A DNA stretch of 64,000 nucleotides from Escherichia phage EC100: sequence record NC_105587.1. One strand, given 5' to 3'. Shown piece after piece: positions 28,252 through 40,240 of the stretch. A program made the translations under genes and the position numbers. The notes under the pieces were generated by a model. It worked only from the letters and a program-made list of their open reading frames with translations, was not told the origin of the DNA and ran no database searches. Each line of letters starts with the position of its first letter. Position 1 is the first letter of the stretch.

Positions 28252-28327
28252 TGGTAGTTAGTAGTGGATTTGAACCACTGTAGTCGCTCCGTATGAAGGA
28301 GGTGCATAACCACTCTGCCAACTAACT
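28252..28327 (-). tRNA. tRNA-Met/Ile2 (anticodon CAT)
   Basis: 7-bp acceptor stem, T-arm, anticodon loop with CAT, encoded CCA; hand-folded. Confidence 0.65.
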
Positions 28328-28423
28328 GTTATGTTTTACTAGACTAAGTAAGTATTCTTTATACTCTTTAGACCAATTAGCTTTTTTAAACTTTCCTGGA
28401 CGCATAGTCTTAATTCCTAAATT

Positions 28424-28500
28424 TGGTACTCCGGGAGGGATTTAAACCCCCGATCTCTCGGTTATCAGCCGAGTGCTTTAGATCGCTAAGCTACCGAAGC
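28424..28500 (-). tRNA. tRNA-Ile (GAT)
   Basis: acceptor stem with G-U pairs, anticodon stem CTCGG/CCGAG, loop with GAT. Confidence 0.6.
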
Positions 28501-28501
28501 A

Positions 28502-28729
28502 TTAACATTTCACAGCAGAACGTTTGCCATTTCTAGGTGCACCTGGAAGTCGTGCACGTTCTGTCATTCTTCGCTTAATCTTTGAGATATTTTCTAGTGT
28601 TTGTTTTTCAGGCTTAATACCTGAAACACTACACCACTGATTACCGTCCCATGCGGTAATGATCATAACACCATTACTCATGATCTTTTCTGTAAAAGTA
28701 ATCCTCATTATAGCAACTCGTCTAAGCAA
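28502..28729 (-). CDS. hypothetical protein
   Basis: 75-aa ORF between tRNA genes. Confidence 0.4.
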   Translation of the reverse strand: MLRRVAIMRITFTEKIMSNGVMIITAWDGNQWCSVSGIKPEKQTLENISKIKRRMTERARLPGAPRNGKRSAVKC

Positions 28730-29001
28730 GAGGTATATTTAAGTTTACCATCTTTATCTACTTTGATTTCGACTTCCGCCCGTGGTACTTGACGAACTAC
28801 ACCATGAATCATCTTATAGCGAATGCCTTTAGCTAGTTCATGATCTTTTGGAAAGACTTGCTTAACCGTTACTACCTTGTACCCATCACGCGGTGTTAGT
28901 ACAACTACTTGATCACCTTCTTTGATTTTCCAAGAGCCAGGAAATTCGTAAGTATAGCGTTGACCACCAGTTTGGAACACAACAGAAAGATAACGTTTCA
29001 T
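28708..29001 (-). CDS. hypothetical protein
   Basis: 97 aa; promoter upstream. Confidence 0.5.
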   Translation of the reverse strand: MKRYLSVVFQTGGQRYTYEFPGSWKIKEGDQVVVLTPRDGYKVVTVKQVFPKDHELAKGIRYKMIHGVVRQVPRAEVEIKVDKDGKLKYTSCLDELL

Positions 29002-29031
29002 TTGGCTTCCCTCTCATTATTTTATATAAAT

Positions 29032-29060
29032 ATTATAACAATAAATAAGAGAGAAAGCAA
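29032..29060 (-). promoter_or_regulatory. strong sigma70 early promoter
   Basis: TTGCTT/17 bp/TATAAT. Confidence 0.6.
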
Positions 29061-29075
29061 ATGAATTTTTAAATT

Positions 29076-29150
29076 TGGTGCTCCCACCAGGAATCGAACC
29101 CGGTTCAGATGCTTACAAGGCAACTGCATCGCCAACAATGCTTTAGGAGC
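29076..29150 (-). tRNA. tRNA-Thr (TGT)
   Basis: acceptor stem, T-arm CCGGG-TTCGATT-CCTGG, anticodon loop with TGT. Confidence 0.6.
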
Positions 29151-29161
29151 GATAGCCCGTT

Positions 29162-29326
29162 ATTTCAACGGGATTTCTTTTTCAATAACAGGAGACTTAT
29201 CAGTCATAACTGTCATTGCCATTTGTTGTAGAAATTCAAAGGTGAAGGCTACACGTTCTTCACCAATCTCTACTTCGACACGTTTCTTTTGTTTATCGAT
29301 CTTGACTTTTAGGTTATCAGCCATCT
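29162..29326 (-). CDS. small hypothetical protein
   Basis: ~54-aa ORF found manually, start overlaps upstream gene end. Confidence 0.35.
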
Positions 29327-29538
29327 TCGGGTTCTCGTTGCTGCGCTACTTCTAGCCAGTCTGGTAGAAGAAACTTTGTACGAAATTCTTCGTAAGTTTC
29401 TTTGGGATAAAAGCTAAAACCTCCTTTTTCGTCATTCAGGATAACAGAGCCGTCAGTTTGTTCATATGCTCGGTATGTTTCTCCAATAACAATAACTCGT
29501 TTATCGGTACTTTTATTACGAAATTCAAAAACGTGCAT
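29317..29538 (-). CDS. hypothetical protein
   Basis: 73-aa ORF. Confidence 0.45.
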   Translation of the reverse strand: MHVFEFRNKSTDKRVIVIGETYRAYEQTDGSVILNDEKGGFSFYPKETYEEFRTKFLLPDWLEVAQQREPEDG

Positions 29539-29554
29539 AACATTTCCTTAAAGT

Positions 29555-29630
29555 TGGAGCGGCTAGAGGGAATCGAACCCTACTCAGCGAGGCTTGGAAG
29601 GCCTGCGACACAACCCGTGTGCTTAACCGC
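29555..29630 (-). tRNA. tRNA-Gly (TCC)
   Basis: acceptor stem, anticodon loop CTTCCAA. Confidence 0.6.
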
Positions 29631-37840: not shown

Positions 37841-37861
37841 TATTAAGGGGAGGAGCCCATT

Positions 37862-38275
37862 ATGAGTAAATATGGTTTTGTAAATAACGGACTTAATCAA
37901 AGTATGGGCTCCCAGCAGCCCATTCCGGGTCTGGATAACCCCTACTTACAACAGTTGCAACAGCGTTTAGCAGAAGCGCAACAGATGCAGCAACAACTCC
38001 AGCAAAACCCTGGAAGTGTGAGTCCTATGCAAATGATGCAGCAAATGAGCGGGCAGTCGCAAATGCCTCAACAAATGCAGCAACAGATGCCGCAGCAAGT
38101 TCAGCAACAAACCCAACAACCGCAGGTTTCTGCGGAAGGACAGGCAGTACTAGCCCTTTTCGAAGACTTCGCAAAGACAGAGGATGGGAAACAGCTTGTA
38201 TCACTTATGGGTAAGTTTAATAGCTTCTGCCAAAGCCAAATTGCAAAAGCTCAAAATAGCGGTAATAACTCCTAA
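37862..38275 (+). CDS. Gln/Met-rich low-complexity protein
   Basis: 137 aa; GGGAGG RBS; long 'QQMQQQ' tracts. Confidence 0.55.
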   Translation: MSKYGFVNNGLNQSMGSQQPIPGLDNPYLQQLQQRLAEAQQMQQQLQQNPGSVSPMQMMQQMSGQSQMPQQMQQQMPQQVQQQTQQPQVSAEGQAVLALFEDFAKTEDGKQLVSLMGKFNSFCQSQIAKAQNSGNNS

Positions 38276-38284
38276 GGAGGGATT

Positions 38285-38479
38285 ATGTGTTGCAGAAAAT
38301 CTGTTTCGTGCTGCCCAATGCCTGTAGCACGTTGTTGCTCTCCAGCAATGTTTACGCAAATACCGGCGTTCAATCCGTTTGCCTTTAAGCCTACTCTTAT
38401 CCTGCCCCCTAGAGTAGATTTTCAGTCAAGATTGGCCTCCCGTATGGGTGGTTGCTGTAATAAGAGTATATGGTTCTGA
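38285..38479 (+). CDS. small Cys-rich protein (four CC doublets)
   Basis: 64 aa; 'MCCRK..SCCP..RCCS..GGCCNK'; AGGAGG RBS; terminator follows. Confidence 0.5.
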   Translation: MCCRKSVSCCPMPVARCCSPAMFTQIPAFNPFAFKPTLILPPRVDFQSRLASRMGGCCNKSIWF

Positions 38480-38495
38480 AGAACCAAACAATAAA

Positions 38496-38530
38496 GCCCC
38501 TAGTCGAAAGACTTAGGGGCTTTTCTTTTA
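38496..38530 (+). terminator. rho-independent terminator ending the + strand cassette
   Basis: GCCCCTAG-loop-CTTAGGGGC then TTTTCTTTT. Confidence 0.65.
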
Positions 38531-38540
38531 TCTTAAATAC

Positions 38541-38574
38541 AGAAAAGCCCTGCGCTCTCCAGGAAACGCAGGGC
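38541..38574 (-). terminator. rho-independent terminator downstream of SPFH gene
   Basis: GCCCTGCG-loop-CGCAGGGC then TTTTCT on reverse strand. Confidence 0.6.
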
Positions 38575-38599
38575 TTACTTCAGATGTTACATGCGGGTA

Positions 38600-39547
38600 T
38601 TATTTATTACGCATATCCATAATCATTTGGCCATCATAGCCAGTGCCAACCACAGTCTGCGGTACACCACCCTGATACTTCTGAGCACGAATCATTTCAA
38701 CTTCCAGTTGCTTCCAGCGAATCATCTCAGGAGTAATGGTACGTTGCAGTGCGGCGTTAGCTTCAGCTTCTTTCTTAGCTGCGTACAGTTTAGCATCTGC
38801 ATCACGTTCATTAGCAATAGCTTGGTTGTTGCGAGCTTCACGATCTGCTTCTGCTTGTTTAACTTTTTGCTGTGCTTCCTGTTCAACACGAGCTAATTCA
38901 GCTTTAGCAGCATTAACCTGTTCTTCACGAACTTTGGTATTCTGTACCTGTTCCATGATTACCGGTGGCAAAGTAATATCCTGAAGGAACACCTGCTTAA
39001 CTGTGTAACCATATGGGCGTGCATACTCTTCAACTTCCTGTTGAATTGCAGTTTGCAATTGAGCCTGAATTTTAGCATCAAACAAATCTTGTGCTTTAGG
39101 CACAGACTTACCAAACTCACGAATAGTAGACAATAATTTTTCAGTTACATATTTGTCTAACGCTTGATCCTGAGTACCTGCATTAATACGGTTAATCGGT
39201 GCCTTAGAACCATCAAATTGCAACATAACAGTCAAGTCAACAGTGGATTTAAACTTATCCTGACTAGGAACCTGAAGTTTATCTAATTTTACAGCAATAT
39301 CTTTTGTACTAAAAGTATCGAAAGATGCAAACGGGTTTACAAGATGGAAACCAGGTAATACTGGGTTAGGATCTACTTTACCCAGAAATGTTTGGGTTTT
39401 AACCGTACCATCAGAAACAATAGTATATGAATTAAAAGCTAGGATTAAACCTGCTAAACCAACTACAGCACCAATACCCCAACGTTTAATAGTACGAATT
39501 ACTTTCTGCTCAGAAGTCAGTTCTTTCATATTTTTAGTATTAAACAT
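38600..39547 (-). CDS. SPFH/band-7 (prohibitin/HflC-like) membrane protein
   Basis: 315 aa; N-terminal TM helix, 'PGFHLVNPF' SPFH core, Ala/Glu-rich coiled-coil tail. Confidence 0.65.
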   Translation of the reverse strand: MFNTKNMKELTSEQKVIRTIKRWGIGAVVGLAGLILAFNSYTIVSDGTVKTQTFLGKVDPNPVLPGFHLVNPFASFDTFSTKDIAVKLDKLQVPSQDKFKSTVDLTVMLQFDGSKAPINRINAGTQDQALDKYVTEKLLSTIREFGKSVPKAQDLFDAKIQAQLQTAIQQEVEEYARPYGYTVKQVFLQDITLPPVIMEQVQNTKVREEQVNAAKAELARVEQEAQQKVKQAEADREARNNQAIANERDADAKLYAAKKEAEANAALQRTITPEMIRWKQLEVEMIRAQKYQGGVPQTVVGTGYDGQMIMDMRNK

Positions 39548-39581
39548 ATATTTCCTTTGTTTTAGTTACAGTTAATAAAGT

Positions 39582-39656
39582 TGGCCGAGGTGACAGGATT
39601 CGAACCTGCATAAAGGAATTTAGAAGACTCCTGCCTCTCCCTTAGACTACACCCCG
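39582..39656 (-). tRNA. tRNA-Arg (TCT)
   Basis: acceptor CGGGGTG/CACCTCG, anticodon loop CTTCTAA. Confidence 0.55.
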
Positions 39657-40169
39657 TTTAAGTATTTTTAAGAACTCTCGTAAAAACTCTTAAAAATACA
39701 GACGATACCGGGAGAGTCATAAGTCTCACTCATTAAGTATTTCAAGACAAAATACAGTAACGTCTATTATTTTCCAGTTTAAGTCAAGGTGACTTAGTGG
39801 TTATGTCCTGCGGTATATTGAGGACTCGGTTAGGTTAGGGTCATGACTCCCCACCTTTTTGCTGCTACTCAACAGGAGTTATCGCGAATTACCTGTGCTA
39901 TTGTGCACCATTAGTGGCATCTCTCATGCCAGCATTTCCCACTTTATGTATAGCTTGAAAAACTACTCCGATATGGAGGAAAAACTTCACTATCTAGAAT
40001 ACCTTCTAAAGTTCTTCTTTAGCCTGGACATAGTTAAATCGTAATAAAACTATTCAGCAGACTGGTTGGTTAGTCTGGAACCAACTACCGCGTGGTTTAG
40101 GCAGTGCGCAACTAACCTCGGAAGCTTTTACGTTAAAAGCATCAGTTATCCAGTTCTTACCGACCGTAG

Positions 40170-40240
40170 GATTCGAACCTACATCTTCCACCAGTTACGG
40201 CTTGATAATACCAATTATACTAGGACGGCAGTGTTACTAC
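40170..40240 (-). tRNA. tRNA-like, anticodon unresolved
   Basis: perfect T-arm GTAGG-TTCGAAT-CCTAC, acceptor with one mismatch, no encoded CCA. Confidence 0.35.

What the first reader, a model, noticed from the sequence alone, without database searches (positions are those of the whole stretch)
28252..40240. tRNA cluster of about 26 genes, several with non-canonical stems
Hand folding gives tRNAs for Met/Ile2 (three CAT anticodons), Ile, Thr, Gly, Gln x2, His, Ser x3, Ala, Lys, Pro, Asp, Cys, Glu, Tyr and Arg, plus several uncertain ones (CTT, GTT with a 13-nt variable arm, a Phe-like GAA with two U-U mismatches, a TAG anticodon in a class I frame). I could not place Val, Trp or Leu confidently; they may be among the unresolved elements. 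Strong promoters read directly into tRNA blocks, implying processing from long polycistronic transcripts.
Basis: partly seen in the sequence, partly recalled or inferred. Interest (0 to 1): 0.35.

Follow-up and report, generated by a model that had tools for sequence, protein, structure and literature searches.

The report
Phage T5-type tRNA gene cluster
This is the well-known transfer-RNA gene block of a T5-like coliphage (25 real tRNA genes plus a few tRNA look-alikes); it is ordinary as a cluster, but two members have an unusual shape (an asparagine tRNA with an extra arm, a leucine tRNA without one) that recurs across many phages.

Summary
The window is 100% identical to Escherichia phage EC122 (Tequintavirus). 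The finding is its T5-type tRNA region.

**Count.** I find 25 tRNA genes, all on the minus strand between 28252 and 39656, and all with an encoded CCA end. There are also tRNA-like elements that are not decoding tRNAs, including 32079-32146 and 40157-40230.

The four "uncertain" genes (CTT, GTT, GAA, TAG) pass the Rfam tRNA model. Trp is at 34022-34092 and is found only by homology to T5. Leu is the TAG gene. Val is absent.

**Promoters and stems.** Ten annotated T5 promoters are conserved at 94-99% identity. Anticodon-stem mismatches occur in 12 of 24 phage tRNAs, against 0 of 15 E. coli tRNAs.

**Function.** The cluster most likely provides a self-sufficient tRNA supply. Published T5 experiments show such tRNAs neutralise the tRNA-cutting defences PARIS and retron-Eco7.

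**Beyond the finding.**
- The extra arm of tRNA-Asn is real, supported by covariation. It occurs in more than 120 viral contigs but gives only 32 hits in 185,579 species genomes.
- About a third of phage tRNA-Leu in a neutral sample lack the long arm.
- I found no description of either pattern in the literature I could search.

The cluster itself is already known.

The parts
28252..28327 (-). tRNA-Met(CAT), elongator type; C27.C43 mismatch
   Evidence: ARAGORN; Rfam 51.5 bits; 100% identical to T5 tRNAM
28424..28500 (-). tRNA-Ile(GAT)
   Evidence: ARAGORN; Rfam 64.7 bits; 76 of 77 nt aligned at 100% to T5
29076..29150 (-). tRNA-Thr(TGT); U28.U42 mismatch; G39 in place of the U39 of the AriB motif
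   Evidence: 49.0 bits; 97.3% to T5
29555..29630 (-). tRNA-Gly(TCC); non-canonical, with C27.C43, a 4-bp T stem and 1 nt between the acceptor and D stems
   Evidence: Found by ARAGORN only at the relaxed threshold; below the Rfam gathering score; 100% identical to T5 tRNAG1, which the T5 record annotates as an effective suppressor after anticodon change
29639..29714 (-). tRNA-Gln(TTG); C31.U39 mismatch; allele unrelated to the T5 one
   Evidence: 48.6 bits; no T5 match
29721..29796 (-). tRNA-Gln(CTG), intact here (pseudogene overlapped by hegD in T5)
   Evidence: (56.4 bits)
30029..30105 (-). tRNA-His(GTG)
   Evidence: 59.9 bits; 100% to T5; not annotated in the GenBank record
30107..30468 (-). 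Homologues of T5 stable RNAs: RNAIII (30107-30212), RNAI (30217-30323, ends GAGCC-G-CCA) and tRNA-like RNA1 (30324-30468)
   Evidence: BLAST to T5 misc_RNA features at 99%, 92.5% and 84.8%; folds
30472..30566 (-). tRNA-Ser(TGA), class II; U73; an extra nucleotide between the acceptor and D stems; 5' half differs from T5
   Evidence: ARAGORN relaxed threshold; 37.6 bits to the Rfam tRNA-Sec model, below gathering; comparison with T5, HASG4 and bobsandoy Ser(TGA)
30579..30669 (-). tRNA-Ser(GGA), non-canonical D region; A52.C62 in the T stem; the weakest of the 25
   Evidence: ARAGORN relaxed threshold only; no Rfam hit; 70.5% to T5 tRNAS2 and 86% to the bobsandoy Ser(GGA) region
30782..30858 (-). 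tRNA-Leu(TAG), 77 nt, without the long variable arm; keeps the Leu-type D arm and A73
   Evidence: (47.5 bits)
30864..30938 (-). tRNA-Ala(TGC)
   Evidence: 54.9 bits; 100% to T5
30958..31129 (-). Homologue of T5 stable RNA2H
   Evidence: 98.3% to the T5 feature
31151..31224 (-). Promoter P13b homologue; T5 has tRNA-Val between tRNA-Lys(UUU) and this promoter, and Val is missing here
   Evidence: 94.6% to T5 P13b; T5 layout
31224..31302 (-). tRNA-Lys(TTT); allele only 76.7% like T5; reads U36AAUC|G41
   Evidence: (60.9 bits)
31492..31569 (-). tRNA-Met(CAT), initiator-like: U1.U72 mismatch and A11:U24, but without the three G-C pairs in the anticodon stem
   Evidence: 43.6 bits; 100% to T5 tRNAfM
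31576..31653 (-). tRNA-Pro(TGG); U28.U42 mismatch; 73% like T5
   Evidence: (54.4 bits)
31822..31896 (-). Promoter P13a homologue (TTGCTA-17-TATAAT)
   Evidence: 94.7% to T5; consensus scan 10 of 12
31903..32148 (-). Homologues of T5 stable RNAIV (31903-32005) and tRNA-like RNA2 (32024-32148). RNA2 contains the false 'tRNA-Arg(GCG)' at 32079-32146, which has no U33 and no CCA
   Evidence: (96.1%, 96.8%)
32644..32719 (-). tRNA-Lys(CTT); no counterpart in T5; A27.A43
   Evidence: 64.8 bits, the best in the window; 98.8% to bobsandoy
32897..32973 (-). tRNA-Asp(GTC); 3 nt between the acceptor and D stems
   Evidence: 46.7 bits; 98.7% to T5; not annotated in GenBank
33196..33268 (-). Homologue of T5 RNA3, a degenerate tRNA-like RNA ending in ACCA
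   Evidence: 98.6% to T5; fold z = -2.8
33271..33353 (-). tRNA-Asn(GTT), 83 nt, with an extra arm (GUC-GAAA-GAC) in the variable region; G73
   Evidence: (59.0 bits)
33506..33581 (-). tRNA-Cys(GCA)
   Evidence: 48.5 bits; 100% to T5
33604..33678 (-). Promoter P14b homologue
   Evidence: 98.7% to T5
33941..34015 (-). tRNA-Phe(GAA); U28.U42 and U29.U41, unpaired at the same positions in six Demerecviridae
   Evidence: 42.4 bits; 97.3%
34022..34092 (-). tRNA-Trp(CCA), 70-71 nt: 3-bp D stem with a 5-nt loop, 3-nt variable loop, C31.A39, G73, CCA
   Evidence: Missed by ARAGORN and Rfam. 98.6% to T5 tRNAW. Sequence and fold. Variants in T5 and bobsandoy keep the pairs as G.U. Present in 116 phage records, almost never annotated
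34102..34176 (-). tRNA-Glu(TTC); allele unrelated to T5
   Evidence: (56.3 bits)
34184..34271 (-). tRNA-Tyr(GTA), class II; 85.5% like T5, with the same variable arm
   Evidence: ARAGORN default; below the Rfam gathering score
34312..34381 (-). Promoter P14a homologue, upstream of Tyr-Glu-Trp-Phe
   Evidence: 95.7% to T5
34680..34754 (-). Promoter P15c homologue
   Evidence: 97.3% to T5; consensus scan 10 of 12 with an extended TG
35162..35845 (-). hegA-type homing endonuclease ORF with an N-terminal LuxR/GerE helix-turn-helix
   Evidence: Annotation; Pfam GerE
35869..35946 (-). tRNA(CAT) homologous to T5 tRNA-Ile2; C27.A43, irregular T stem, 3-nt linker
   Evidence: Rfam 40.3 bits; ARAGORN relaxed threshold; 97.4% to T5 tRNAI2
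35953..36041 (-). tRNA-Ser(GCT), class II
   Evidence: 60.5 bits; 100% to T5
36030..36105 (-). Promoter P15b homologue; its 3' end overlaps the first bases of tRNA-Ser(GCT)
   Evidence: 98.7% to T5; TTGCTA-17-TATAAT
36588..36660 (-). Promoter P15a homologue
   Evidence: 95.9% to T5
38493..38576 (.). Bidirectional intrinsic terminator region that separates the Arg/SPFH unit from the plus-strand genes
   Evidence: 94.6% to the T5 terminator; 13-bp stem plus T run
39582..39656 (-). tRNA-Arg(TCT)
   Evidence: 49.3 bits; 100% to T5
39657..40292 (-). Homologue of T5 stable RNAX. It contains a tRNA-like element at 40157-40230 with an 8-bp acceptor, A33, a 3-bp anticodon stem and no CCA. This element is not a decoding tRNA
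   Evidence: 35.5 bits; 'tRNA-OTHER'
40282..40354 (-). Promoter P16-17 homologue, reading into RNAX and tRNA-Arg
   Evidence: 97.3% to T5; TTGCTA-17-TATAAT

Best explanation
The region is the tRNA gene region of a T5-like phage (Escherichia phage EC122, Tequintavirus).

**What is there (shown).** It holds 25 tRNA genes for 19 amino acids, with Val missing and with initiator-like and Ile2-type CAT tRNAs included. It also holds homologues of the T5 'stable RNAs', small ORFs and one homing-endonuclease gene. All of these lie on one strand, behind a series of T5-type early promoters.

**How it is expressed (inferred from layout).** The tRNAs are transcribed as multi-gene precursors and cut out by host RNases. 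Because every gene encodes its own CCA end, no CCA addition should be needed.

**What it does (from published T5 experiments plus inference for this phage).** The set lets the phage keep translating when host tRNAs are limiting or are cut by tRNA-targeting defence nucleases. Published examples are PARIS AriB, which cuts Lys(UUU), Thr(UGU) and Asn(GUU), and retron-Eco7 PtuAB, which cuts Tyr. A second benefit is the supply of decoders for codons the AT-richer phage uses more than the host, such as CUA, AGA and CCA.

**Non-canonical features (interpretation).** Anticodon-stem mismatches, the extra arm on Asn and the missing arm on Leu are best read as tolerated or selected departures from the host tRNA shape. 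They keep the synthetase determinants while changing what nucleases see.
For: **Identity.** The region is 100% identical over 12.5 kb to ON185583 and its sister phages. It is collinear with the T5 reference, with 14 of 25 tRNAs at least 97% identical to T5.

**tRNA status.** ARAGORN and Rfam support it. All 25 genes encode CCA, while the two false candidates do not.

**Function of identical T5 genes.** The T5 record notes that Ile1, Gly1, His, Ala, Ile2 and Ser3 become amber suppressors after an anticodon change. These six T5 genes are at least 97% identical to the genes here.

**Promoters.** Ten T5 promoters are conserved at 94-99%.

**Defence link (papers).**
- T5 tRNA-Lys, Thr and Asn are necessary and sufficient to neutralise PARIS. 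AriB cuts between positions 40 and 41 and reads the U36AAUC|A41 motif and D-loop U16 (PMC11464382, PMC12409363).
- T5 and SP15 tRNA-Tyr, driven by a strong phage promoter, defeats retron-Eco7. PtuAB cuts the variable loop (PMC11555353, PMC12673091).

**Here.**
- Thr has G39.
- Lys(UUU) has G41.
- Asn has C16 in the D loop plus the extra arm.
- Anticodon-stem mismatches occur in 12 of 24 phage tRNAs against 0 of 15 host tRNAs.

**Determinants kept.**
- Leu(TAG) keeps A73, A14, A15-U48, G18G19 and A20a, which the review lists as sufficient for E. coli LeuRS without the arm (PMC9976931).
- Asn keeps the GUU anticodon and G73.

**Codon use.** CUA is 2.8 times, AGA 2.1 times and CCA 1.9 times as frequent as in an E. 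coli gene sample.
Against: - No expression, processing, charging or nuclease data exist for EC122 itself.
- EC122 Lys(UUU) keeps U39 and C40 and differs from the host motif only at position 41.
- EC122 Asn is identical to E. coli Asn from position 36 to 41. Resistance to AriB therefore cannot be assumed for these alleles.
- The T5 record says many T5 tRNAs (Met, Thr, Ser2, Asp, Asn, Cys, Phe, Trp, Glu, Arg) did not become suppressors. This is uninformative where the anticodon is an identity element, but it leaves their function untested.
- Ser(GGA) and Trp have no covariance-model support.
- Codon compensation is only partial. GUA is 2.8 times enriched, yet tRNA-Val is missing.
Confidence: 0.85

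Rival explanations
1. Pure codon compensation. The cluster exists only to supply tRNAs for codons that the AT-richer phage uses more than E. coli does, and the odd stems are neutral.
For: CUA, AGA and CCA are 1.9-2.8 times more frequent in 34 window ORFs than in an E. coli gene sample, and each has a cognate phage tRNA. Most phage anticodons start with U and so read A-ending codons (tRNA list).
Against: - GUA is equally enriched, yet Val is absent. Many phage tRNAs serve codons that are not enriched (ratios 0.8-1.1).
- The E. coli sample is small (5,108 codons) and partly atypical.
- Published experiments show direct anti-defence roles for T5 Lys, Thr, Asn and Tyr.
- The excess of anticodon-stem mismatches (12 of 24 against 0 of 15) is not explained by codon supply.
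Confidence: 0.3
2. The non-canonical members (Trp, Ser(GGA), Gly, Phe, extra-arm Asn, armless Leu) are decaying pseudogenes drifting in a non-essential region.
For: - The region is dispensable in T5 deletion mutants (PMC11464382).
- T5 has a Gln2 pseudogene, and the EH7 Asn looks like a broken chimera.
- Ser(GGA) and Trp fail the covariance models.
Against: - All keep CCA and a paired acceptor stem.
- Trp is at least 95% conserved in 116 records, and its variants keep the pairs.
- The Asn arm shows compensatory changes across genera and across more than 70 unrelated phage sequences.
- The Phe mismatch positions are conserved across genera.
- The identical T5 Gly gene works as a suppressor.
Confidence: 0.1
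3. The extra arm on tRNA-Asn(GUU) is a steric shield against nucleases such as AriB that grip the 3' strand of the anticodon stem and the D loop. It would let the tRNA keep a host-like anticodon stem-loop.
For: Within T5-like phages, the alleles with an extra arm keep the AriB motif: EC122 Asn reads UAAUC|C and HASG4 Thr(UGU), 87 nt, reads UAAUC|A. The class-I alleles mutate it: T5 Asn UAAGU|U, T5 and EC122 Thr UAAGC|A, T5 Lys UAAAC|C. AriB is modelled to span positions 40/41 and D-loop 16/17, either side of where the variable arm emerges. PtuAB shows that variable regions matter to defence nucleases.
Against: In broad viral samples, the UAAUC motif is kept in about 47% of extra-arm Asn and about 52% of class-I Asn, so there is no enrichment (an approximate count with selection caveats). 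Extra arms also occur on isotypes not known to be AriB targets, such as Cys, Trp, Ile(UAU) and Glu. No biochemical data exist.
Confidence: 0.2
4. The extra-arm tRNA(GUU) is charged with serine (long arm plus G73 are SerRS determinants) and recodes AAY codons, by analogy with nematode nev-tRNAs and allo-tRNAs.
For: [quoted passage not shown] EC122 Asn has G1-C72, G2-C71 and G73.
Against: - The anticodon GUU plus G73 is the full known AsnRS identity set.
- The arm is short: a 3-4-bp stem in most members.
- Many members start UCC...GGA like E. coli tRNA-Asn.
- It is the only Asn tRNA in EC122, so systematic Asn-to-Ser misreading would hit every phage protein.
Confidence: 0.05

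Closest known systems
tRNA gene region of bacteriophage T5 (NC_005859: 25 tRNA features and 8 stable RNAs)
   Same: - Same genome position, strand and gene order.
- Same promoters.
- Same stable RNAs (RNAIII, RNAI, RNA1, RNA2H, RNAIV, RNA2, RNA3, RNAX).
- 14 tRNAs are at least 97% identical.
   Different: - EC122 lacks Val and the endonuclease or ORF insertions hegD, hegC and T5.069.
- It has an intact Gln(CUG) and an extra Lys(CUU).
- It carries unrelated or strongly divergent alleles of Gln x2, Ser(TGA), Ser(GGA), Leu, Lys(UUU), Pro, Asn, Glu and Tyr. 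The breakpoints lie next to the T5 endonuclease insertion sites.
- T5 has a long-arm Leu and a class-I Asn. EC122 has the reverse.
Phage-encoded tRNAs that neutralise tRNA-cutting defences (T5 Lys/Thr/Asn against PARIS AriB; T5 and SP15 Tyr against retron-Eco7 PtuAB)
   Same: The same four isoacceptors are present, at the same loci and behind the same promoters. The Thr allele is essentially the T5 one (97.3%), and Tyr shares the T5 variable arm.
   Different: The Lys(UUU) and Asn alleles differ from the tested T5 ones at exactly the positions shown to matter: 39 and 41 for both, and also 40 for Asn. Their resistance is untested.
Class II tRNAs and V-arm tRNAs with non-Leu/Ser anticodons (nematode nev-tRNAs, bacterial allo-tRNAs)
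   Same: A base-paired extra arm sits in the variable region of a tRNA whose anticodon belongs to a class-I family.
   Different: Here the cognate (Asn) identity set is intact, the arm is short, the acceptor/T geometry is the normal 7/5, and the carriers are phages. No recoding is implied.
Animal mitochondrial tRNA-Leu (the only tRNA-Leu the review lists as lacking the long arm)
   Same: A tRNA with a Leu anticodon, A73 and a short variable loop.
   Different: The phage tRNA has a full-size, bacterial-type Leu D arm and T loop and is expected to be charged by the host's bacterial LeuRS. It is not a reduced organellar tRNA.
T4 tRNA cluster with stable RNA species 1 and 2 (from my own knowledge; not tested here)
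   Same: A phage tRNA operon that also encodes small stable RNAs of unknown function, processed by host RNases.
   Different: T4 has 8 tRNAs in one or two transcription units. T5-like phages have about 25, spread over about 12 kb with many promoters, ORFs and homing endonucleases.

Membership tests
tRNA (Rfam RF00005 / cloverleaf) | Score at or above the curated gathering threshold of the covariance model | tested here: met
   Twenty of the 25 genes score 40.3-64.8 bits against a threshold of 29. Not met for Gly, Ser(TGA), Ser(GGA), Tyr and Trp. The tRNA-like element at 40158-40229 also passes (35.5 bits), so passing is not sufficient.
tRNA (Rfam RF00005 / cloverleaf) | 7-bp acceptor stem, 7-nt anticodon loop with U33, T arm, discriminator plus 3' CCA | tested here: met
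   All 24 ARAGORN genes have U33 and an encoded CCA. Trp has loop CUCCAAA, G73 and CCA, with a reduced D arm. The candidates at 32079-32146 and 40157-40230 fail on U33 and CCA.
tRNA (functional) | Expressed, processed and aminoacylated in infected cells | not testable with these tools
   Only indirect evidence exists: the T5 record reports suppressor activity for six T5 genes (Ile1, Gly1, His, Ala, Ile2, Ser3) that are at least 97% identical to genes here.
T5-like (Tequintavirus) tRNA region | Synteny and sequence identity with the T5 region, including promoters and stable RNAs | tested here: met
Class II (long-arm) tRNA: applied to tRNA-Asn 33271-33353 | Variable region longer than 10 nt that forms a base-paired arm, supported by covariation | tested here: met
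   The 13-nt region folds as GUC-GAAA-GAC. On a MAFFT alignment of 29 diverse members, the three inner arm pairs are 100% paired, with 14, 17 and 6 double-sided changes. Of 77 unique arms, 74 fold as hairpins and 50 have GNRA loops.
Class II (long-arm) tRNA: applied to tRNA-Asn 33271-33353 | Belongs to the Leu, Ser, Tyr or Sec isotypes, with the 3-bp D stem typical of class II | tested here: not met
   The anticodon is GUU, the discriminator is G73 and the D stem has 4 bp. It works like an Asn tRNA with an added arm, not like a member of the classical class II families.
Bacterial tRNA-Leu: applied to 30782-30858 | E. coli LeuRS determinants: A73, A14, A15-U48, G18G19, A20a | tested here: met
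   Read directly from the sequence and the ARAGORN structure. The determinant list comes from PMC9976931.
Bacterial tRNA-Leu: applied to 30782-30858 | Long variable arm | tested here: not met
   The variable loop is 5 nt (GUUUU). E. coli leuW has a 13-nt arm. The review states the arm is not required by E. coli LeuRS, so Leu function remains likely.
Bacterial initiator tRNA: applied to 31492-31569 | Mismatch at 1-72, A11:U24, and three consecutive G-C pairs in the anticodon stem (features from my own knowledge) | tested here: inconclusive
   U1.U72 and A11:U24 are present. The anticodon stem is CUAGU/GCUAG, without the three G-C pairs. It is 100% identical to the gene T5 annotates as fMet.
tRNA-Ile2 (CAU, lysidine): applied to 35869-35946 | C34 modified by TilS and charged by IleRS | not testable with these tools
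   The assignment rests on 97.4% identity to the gene T5 annotates as tRNAI2. By anticodon alone it reads as Met.
PARIS-neutralising phage tRNA set | Phage copies of Lys(UUU), Thr(UGU) and Asn(GUU) | tested here: met
   All three are present.
PARIS-neutralising phage tRNA set | Substitutions at the AriB recognition and cleavage site (U36AAUC|A41; U16) | tested here: inconclusive
   Thr: U39 to G, met. Lys: only A41 to G. Asn: positions 36-41 identical to E. coli Asn, but C16 and the extra arm are present (criteria).

The most novel reading that the evidence does not exclude
Phage tRNA clusters systematically switch tRNA architecture class. EC122 shows both switches.

- **Leu loses the arm.** About a third of phage tRNA-Leu lack the long variable arm (16 of 49 in a neutral sample).
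- **Asn gains an arm.** About a fifth of phage tRNA-Asn carry an added extra arm, often capped by a GNRA tetraloop (6 of 34 in the same sample). Extra arms turn up occasionally on most other class-I isotypes as well, for example Cys in 3 of 20.
- **Nearly absent from cellular genomes.** The Asn pattern hits more than 120 viral contigs but only 32 places in 185,579 species genomes, and many of the confirmed extra-arm hits sit in large tRNA arrays.

The reading is that these are selected shape changes. They keep the synthetase determinants but escape host factors that recognise tRNA shape, such as defence nucleases that cut in or beside the variable region. I found no description of this class in the searchable literature.
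Probability: 0.3. Interest if true: 0.7.

Novelty: already known. Interest (0 to 1): 0.35.

Why it matters
As a cluster it matters little. The T5 tRNA region has been mapped for decades, and this exact sequence is a deposited genome.

**Immediate practical value.**
- **Better annotation.** The deposited record misses 7 of the 25 tRNAs (Gly, His, Ser x2, Asp, Phe, Trp) and labels a non-tRNA as 'tRNA-OTHER'. The reduced Trp gene is unannotated in more than 100 related genomes.
- **Testable predictions about defence.** EC122 carries Lys(UUU) and Asn alleles that differ from the tested T5 ones exactly where PARIS AriB reads its targets. Its sensitivity to PARIS cannot simply be inferred from T5.

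**If the wider pattern holds.** The extra-arm Asn and the armless Leu would be an exception to the textbook rule that the class I/II split of tRNAs is fixed outside animal mitochondria. They would also point to tRNA shape, and not only anticodon-loop sequence, as a battleground between phages and tRNA-targeting immunity.

Tried and rejected
1. **Generic sigma-70 consensus scan.** It found 31 sites against 33.6 expected from shuffles, so it gives no support by itself. Promoter support comes instead from homology to annotated T5 promoters.

2. **Rfam at a permissive E-value over 27-42 kb.** Apart from tRNA-clan hits, it returned only weak sub-threshold hits that I take to be chance. The stable RNAs match no curated family.

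3. **'The extra arm lets the tRNA keep the AriB motif'.**
   - This looked attractive within T5-like phages.
   - It was not borne out in broad viral samples. UAAUC is kept in 35 of 75 extra-arm Asn (about 47%) and in 54 of 103 class-I Asn (about 52%).
   - The extra-arm figure combines 57 new sequences with 18 re-found loci that carry the motif by construction, so it is approximate.

4. **Codon-usage test.** The result is equivocal. CUA, AGA and CCA fit, but GUA does not, and the host sample is small.

5. **True ratio of extra-arm to class-I Asn in viral contigs.** I used a Tyr-anchored sample instead.

6. **Literature searches.** Searches for an extra-arm tRNA-Asn or an armless tRNA-Leu in phages found nothing relevant.
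   - The review of non-canonical tRNAs never mentions phages.
   - The held text of the eLife paper on phage tRNA evasion has no mention of variable arms or stems.
   - Absence from this library does not prove that the pattern is undescribed.

7. **PDB sequence search of the Toprim ORF.** No informative hit.

8. **The candidates 'Arg(GCG)' 32079-32146 and 'Ser(ACT)' 40157-40230.** I rejected both as tRNAs.

Full report
**Identity of the sequence**

- Window 28000-40500 is 100% identical, at the same coordinates, to Escherichia phage EC122 (ON185583.1; Demerecviridae, Tequintavirus) and three sister isolates. It is 95-97% identical to many T5-like coliphages and Salmonella phages.
- The T5 reference record NC_005859 annotates the homologous region with 25 tRNA features (one a pseudogene), eight 'stable RNAs', a dozen early promoters and three HNH homing-endonuclease genes.
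- The finding is therefore the T5-type tRNA gene region.

**Checking the observation**

- ARAGORN at default settings gives 20 tRNAs. Rfam RF00005 at the gathering score gives 21.
- ARAGORN at a relaxed threshold gives 26 over the whole 64 kb. All 26 lie on the minus strand between 28252 and 40230, and none lies in the other 52 kb.
- I mapped every T5 tRNA and stable-RNA feature onto the window by BLAST.
  - This adds tRNA-Trp at 34022-34092 (98.6% identical to T5 tRNAW), which both tRNA finders miss.
  - It shows that T5 tRNA-Val has no counterpart.
- Two relaxed-threshold candidates are not tRNAs.
  - 'Arg(GCG)' at 32079-32146 lies inside the RNA2 homologue.
  - 'Ser(ACT)' at 40157-40230 lies inside the RNAX homologue, and the GenBank record calls it 'tRNA-OTHER'.
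  - Both lack U33 and a CCA end, and both have broken anticodon stems.
- The result is 25 tRNA genes for 19 amino acids: Met, Ile(GAT), Thr, Gly, Gln x2, His, Ser x3, Leu, Ala, Lys x2, an initiator-like Met, Pro, Asp, Asn, Cys, Phe, Trp, Glu, Tyr, an Ile2-type CAT, and Arg.
- All 25 encode their CCA end.
- The deposited EC122 record lists 19 tRNA features in the region, one of them the 'tRNA-OTHER' look-alike. It omits Gly, His, Ser(TGA), Ser(GGA), Asp, Phe and Trp.

- The genes the covariance model does not support at threshold are others: Gly, Ser(TGA), Ser(GGA), Tyr and Trp.
  - Gly is 100% identical to the T5 gene that the T5 record describes as an effective suppressor after anticodon replacement.
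  - Tyr is found by ARAGORN at default settings.
  - Ser(TGA) re-registers into a regular class II cloverleaf with a perfect acceptor and T arm and one extra linker nucleotide.
  - Ser(GGA) is the weakest. It has homologues in T5, bobsandoy and PM135, with an A.C in the T stem here.
- Trp has these features: a 7-bp acceptor stem (or 6 bp plus U.U), a 3-bp D stem with a 5-nt loop containing GG, anticodon loop CUCCAAA closed by C31.A39, a 3-nt variable loop, a canonical T arm, G73 and CCA.
  - The few variants in T5 and bobsandoy change pairs only to G.U.
  - The element is at least 95% identical in 116 phage records and almost never annotated.

**Non-canonical stems**

- I parsed all genes the same way. 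Twelve of 24 phage tRNAs have a non-Watson-Crick, non-GU pair in the anticodon stem, against 0 of 15 E. coli K-12 tRNAs fetched for comparison (Fisher p = 0.0009).
- The affected tRNAs are: Met C.C, Thr U.U, Gly C.C, both Gln C.U at 31-39, Ser(TGA) U.U, Ser(GGA) A.C, Leu U.U, Pro U.U, Lys(CTT) A.A, Phe two U.U, and Ile2 C.A.
- The two unpaired positions of Phe are unpaired at the same places in T5, HASG4, EH7, bobsandoy and PM135. They are therefore a conserved feature, not damage.

**Transcription**

- The generic promoter scan is not above chance overall.
- The promoters annotated in T5 map to the window at 94-99% identity: P11, P13b, P13a, P14b, P14a, P15c, P15b, P15a, P12 and P16-17.
- They belong to one extended family of about 60 nt (TTGCT-N17-TATAAT with an upstream A tract and a downstream ATAAATT), which cross-matches within the window.
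- Their positions relative to the tRNAs:
  - P15b ends within the first 12 bases of tRNA-Ser(GCT).
  - P14a sits about 40 nt before Tyr-Glu-Trp-Phe.
  - P13b precedes RNA2H-Ala-Leu-Ser-Ser-RNA1-RNAI-RNAIII-His.
  - P16-17 precedes RNAX-Arg.
- A paper on retron-Eco7 evasion reports that the phage tRNA-Tyr promoter is exceptionally strong (PMC11555353).
- Multi-gene precursors processed by host RNases are an inference from this layout.

**Mosaic relationship to T5**

- Fourteen tRNAs are at least 97% identical to T5.
- Gln(UUG), Gln(CUG), Leu, Asn and Glu have no detectable similarity to the T5 alleles. Ser(TGA), Ser(GGA), Lys(UUU), Pro and Tyr are 70-86% identical.
- Lys(CTT) is absent from T5 but 98.8% identical in bobsandoy.
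- Collinearity breaks at 29648-29804, 30472-30821 and 33295-33492. These are the places where T5 carries hegD, hegC and ORF T5.069.
- The EH7 Asn is a chimera: the T5-type 5' part joined to the EC122-type 3' part, with a broken acceptor stem.
- This fits allele exchange by recombination around homing-endonuclease sites (inference).

**Function**

- Experiments on T5 show that its tRNA-Lys(UUU), Thr(UGU) and Asn(GUU) are together necessary and sufficient to neutralise PARIS.
  - The PARIS nuclease AriB cuts host Lys, Thr and Asn tRNAs between positions 40 and 41.
  - It reads U36AAUC|A41 and D-loop U16 (PMC11464382, PMC12409363).
- T5 and SP15 tRNA-Tyr defeats retron-Eco7, whose PtuAB cuts the variable loop of host tRNA-Tyr (PMC11555353, PMC12673091).
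- EC122 has all four isoacceptors.
  - Its Thr is the T5 allele (G39).
  - Its Tyr shares the T5 variable arm.
  - Its Lys(UUU) reads UAAUC|G, whereas T5 reads UAAAC|C.
  - Its Asn is identical to E. coli Asn from position 36 to 41, while carrying C16 and an extra arm.
- Resistance of these EC122 Lys and Asn alleles is therefore an open, testable question.
- Codon use gives partial support for the classical supply role. CUA, AGA and CCA are 1.9-2.8 times as frequent as in an E. coli sample, but so is GUA, for which the phage has no tRNA.

**The extra arm of tRNA-Asn**

- The 13-nt variable region folds as GUC-GAAA-GAC. PM135 (Novosibvirus) has GUUC-GAAA-GAAC, and bobsandoy (Epseptimavirus) has AUCC-GCAA-GGAU.
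- I scanned for the Asn anticodon stem-loop followed by a long gap to the T loop.
  - It found only 32 places in one genome for each of 185,579 species.
  - In about 20 of those 32 loci ARAGORN confirms an extra-arm Asn gene. About half of these sit inside arrays of 7-36 tRNA genes, for example in Micromonospora, and the rest are the only tRNA called in the locus. In the other loci ARAGORN calls only an ordinary 75-nt Asn or no Asn.
- The 77 unique viral variable regions are 11-20 nt long.
  - 74 fold as hairpins and 50 carry GNRA tetraloops.
  - Mean folding energy is -3.1 kcal/mol, against -0.6 for shuffles.
- On an unfitted MAFFT alignment of 29 diverse members, the three inner arm pairs are paired in every sequence, with 14, 17 and 6 double-sided changes. 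That is as good as the canonical stems.
- 78 of 86 unique members have G73, which together with the GUU anticodon is the Asn identity set.
- 533 INPHARED records carry an EC122-like Asn over at least 80% of its 83 nt. They include 166-kb Klebsiella phages, where the match spans 85 nt. The gene is annotated plainly as tRNA-Asn.

**The armless tRNA-Leu**

- The 77-nt tRNA(UAG) has a 5-nt variable loop. It keeps a 3-bp D stem, the 11-nt D loop GAAUUGGCAUA, U48 and A73.
- According to the identity review, these are the determinants E. coli LeuRS needs, and the long arm is dispensable. The same review states that tRNA-Leu carries a long arm in all organisms except animal mitochondria (PMC9976931).
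- Short Leu tRNAs also occur in bobsandoy, KPN4 and PM135, and in 362 INPHARED records including Felixounavirus.
- In the 120 Asn-selected viral loci, 42 of 108 unique tRNA-Leu are short. Of these, 36 have A73 and 34 have the 3-bp D stem.

**A neutral sample**

- I fetched 80 viral loci by a tRNA-Tyr pattern (707 kb, 669 tRNAs).
  - 16 of 49 tRNA-Leu are armless.
  - 6 of 34 tRNA-Asn have the extra arm.
  - Only 1 of 45 tRNA-Ser is short, as expected if SerRS needs the arm.
- Extra arms also appear occasionally on most other class-I isotypes, for example 3 of 20 Cys in this sample. Examples from the Asn-selected loci are shown.
- HASG4, a close relative of EC122, has an 87-nt Thr(UGU) with an arm and an intact UAAUC|A motif.

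**Why the shapes differ is not settled**

- The idea that the arm shields a host-like anticodon stem from AriB fits the T5-like alleles. It is not supported by motif retention in broad samples.
- A serine-charging reading is unlikely but not excluded.
- I found no description of either variant in the literature available here.

**Verdict**

- The observation and the interpretation are confirmed.
- The cluster is already known and ordinary for a T5-like phage.

Noticed in passing
window 33271-33353; loci L013-L132, L165-L266: tRNA-Asn(GUU) with a base-paired extra arm, often GNRA-capped, is common in viral contigs. In a Tyr-anchored sample, 6 of 34 phage tRNA-Asn carry it.
   Followed up: yes
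window 30782-30858; L005, L006, L007 and many IMG/VR loci: tRNA-Leu without the long variable arm but with the Leu-type D arm and A73 is frequent in phages. It accounts for 16 of 49 tRNA-Leu in a neutral sample and occurs in 362 INPHARED records, including Felixounavirus.
   Followed up: partly
window 28252-40230 compared with GenBank ON185583: The deposited annotation lacks 7 of the 25 tRNA genes (Gly, His, Ser(TGA), Ser(GGA), Asp, Phe, Trp) and lists the non-tRNA at 40158-40229 as 'tRNA-OTHER'.
   Followed up: yes
window 34022-34092: The reduced 70-71-nt tRNA-Trp is at least 95% conserved in 116 phage records. It was annotated only in a BF23 record among the hits listed, and in the T5 reference NC_005859. 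EH7 and KPN4 carry a different 77-nt Trp with conserved U2.U71 and U3.U70 mismatches.
   Followed up: partly
window 30107-30468, 31903-32148, 33196-33268: The T5 'stable RNA' homologues look like remodelled tRNAs. RNA1 and RNA2 have acceptor, D and T arms around inserts of about 50 nt. RNAI ends GAGCC-G-CCA, and RNA3 ends ACCA. RNA2 is an island of 91-92% identity in bobsandoy and EH7, amid more divergent flanks.
   Followed up: partly
L004 (EH7) 10543-10620: The EH7 tRNA-Asn is a chimera of the T5-type 5' part and the EC122-type 3' part, with a broken acceptor stem. This suggests a recombination junction inside the T arm.
   Followed up: partly
window 29648-29804, 30472-30821, 33295-33492: Collinearity with T5 breaks exactly where T5 carries hegD, hegC and ORF T5.069. 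The tRNAs flanking these sites (Gln x2, Ser x2, Leu, Asn) are the most divergent alleles.
   Followed up: partly
L002 (HASG4) 2503-2589; L022: Some T5-like phages carry an 87-nt tRNA-Thr(UGU) with an extra arm and an intact AriB motif (UAAUC|A), in place of the 75-nt T5/EC122 allele (UAAGC|A).
   Followed up: partly
L136, L137, L141, L162 (Micromonospora, Verrucosispora): Chromosomal arrays of 23-36 tRNA genes within 8 kb contain an extra-arm tRNA-Asn (89-90 nt) and several 74-77-nt tRNA-Leu. These are the same two architectural switches seen in phages.
   Followed up: no
window 36063-36581 (-): A 172-aa ORF inside the cluster is a Toprim-domain fragment of a DnaG-type primase (PHROG 849, positions 146-337 of 435). 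It lies between promoters P15a and P15b, and its role is unclear.
   Followed up: partly
window 27860-28228 (-): A 122-aa glycyl-radical domain protein (Pfam Gly_radical, a GrcA/YfiD-like spare part for pyruvate formate-lyase) lies directly downstream of the last tRNA.
   Followed up: no
L005 (bobsandoy) 12457-12534: The bobsandoy tRNA-Lys(UUU) has anticodon loop CCUUUAA, that is C33 in place of the near-universal U33.
   Followed up: no
window 40343-40777 (-): The ORF called 'tRNA amidotransferase' in T5 and PHROG 1460 has no Pfam match, so the name seems to rest on annotation transfer only.
   Followed up: partly
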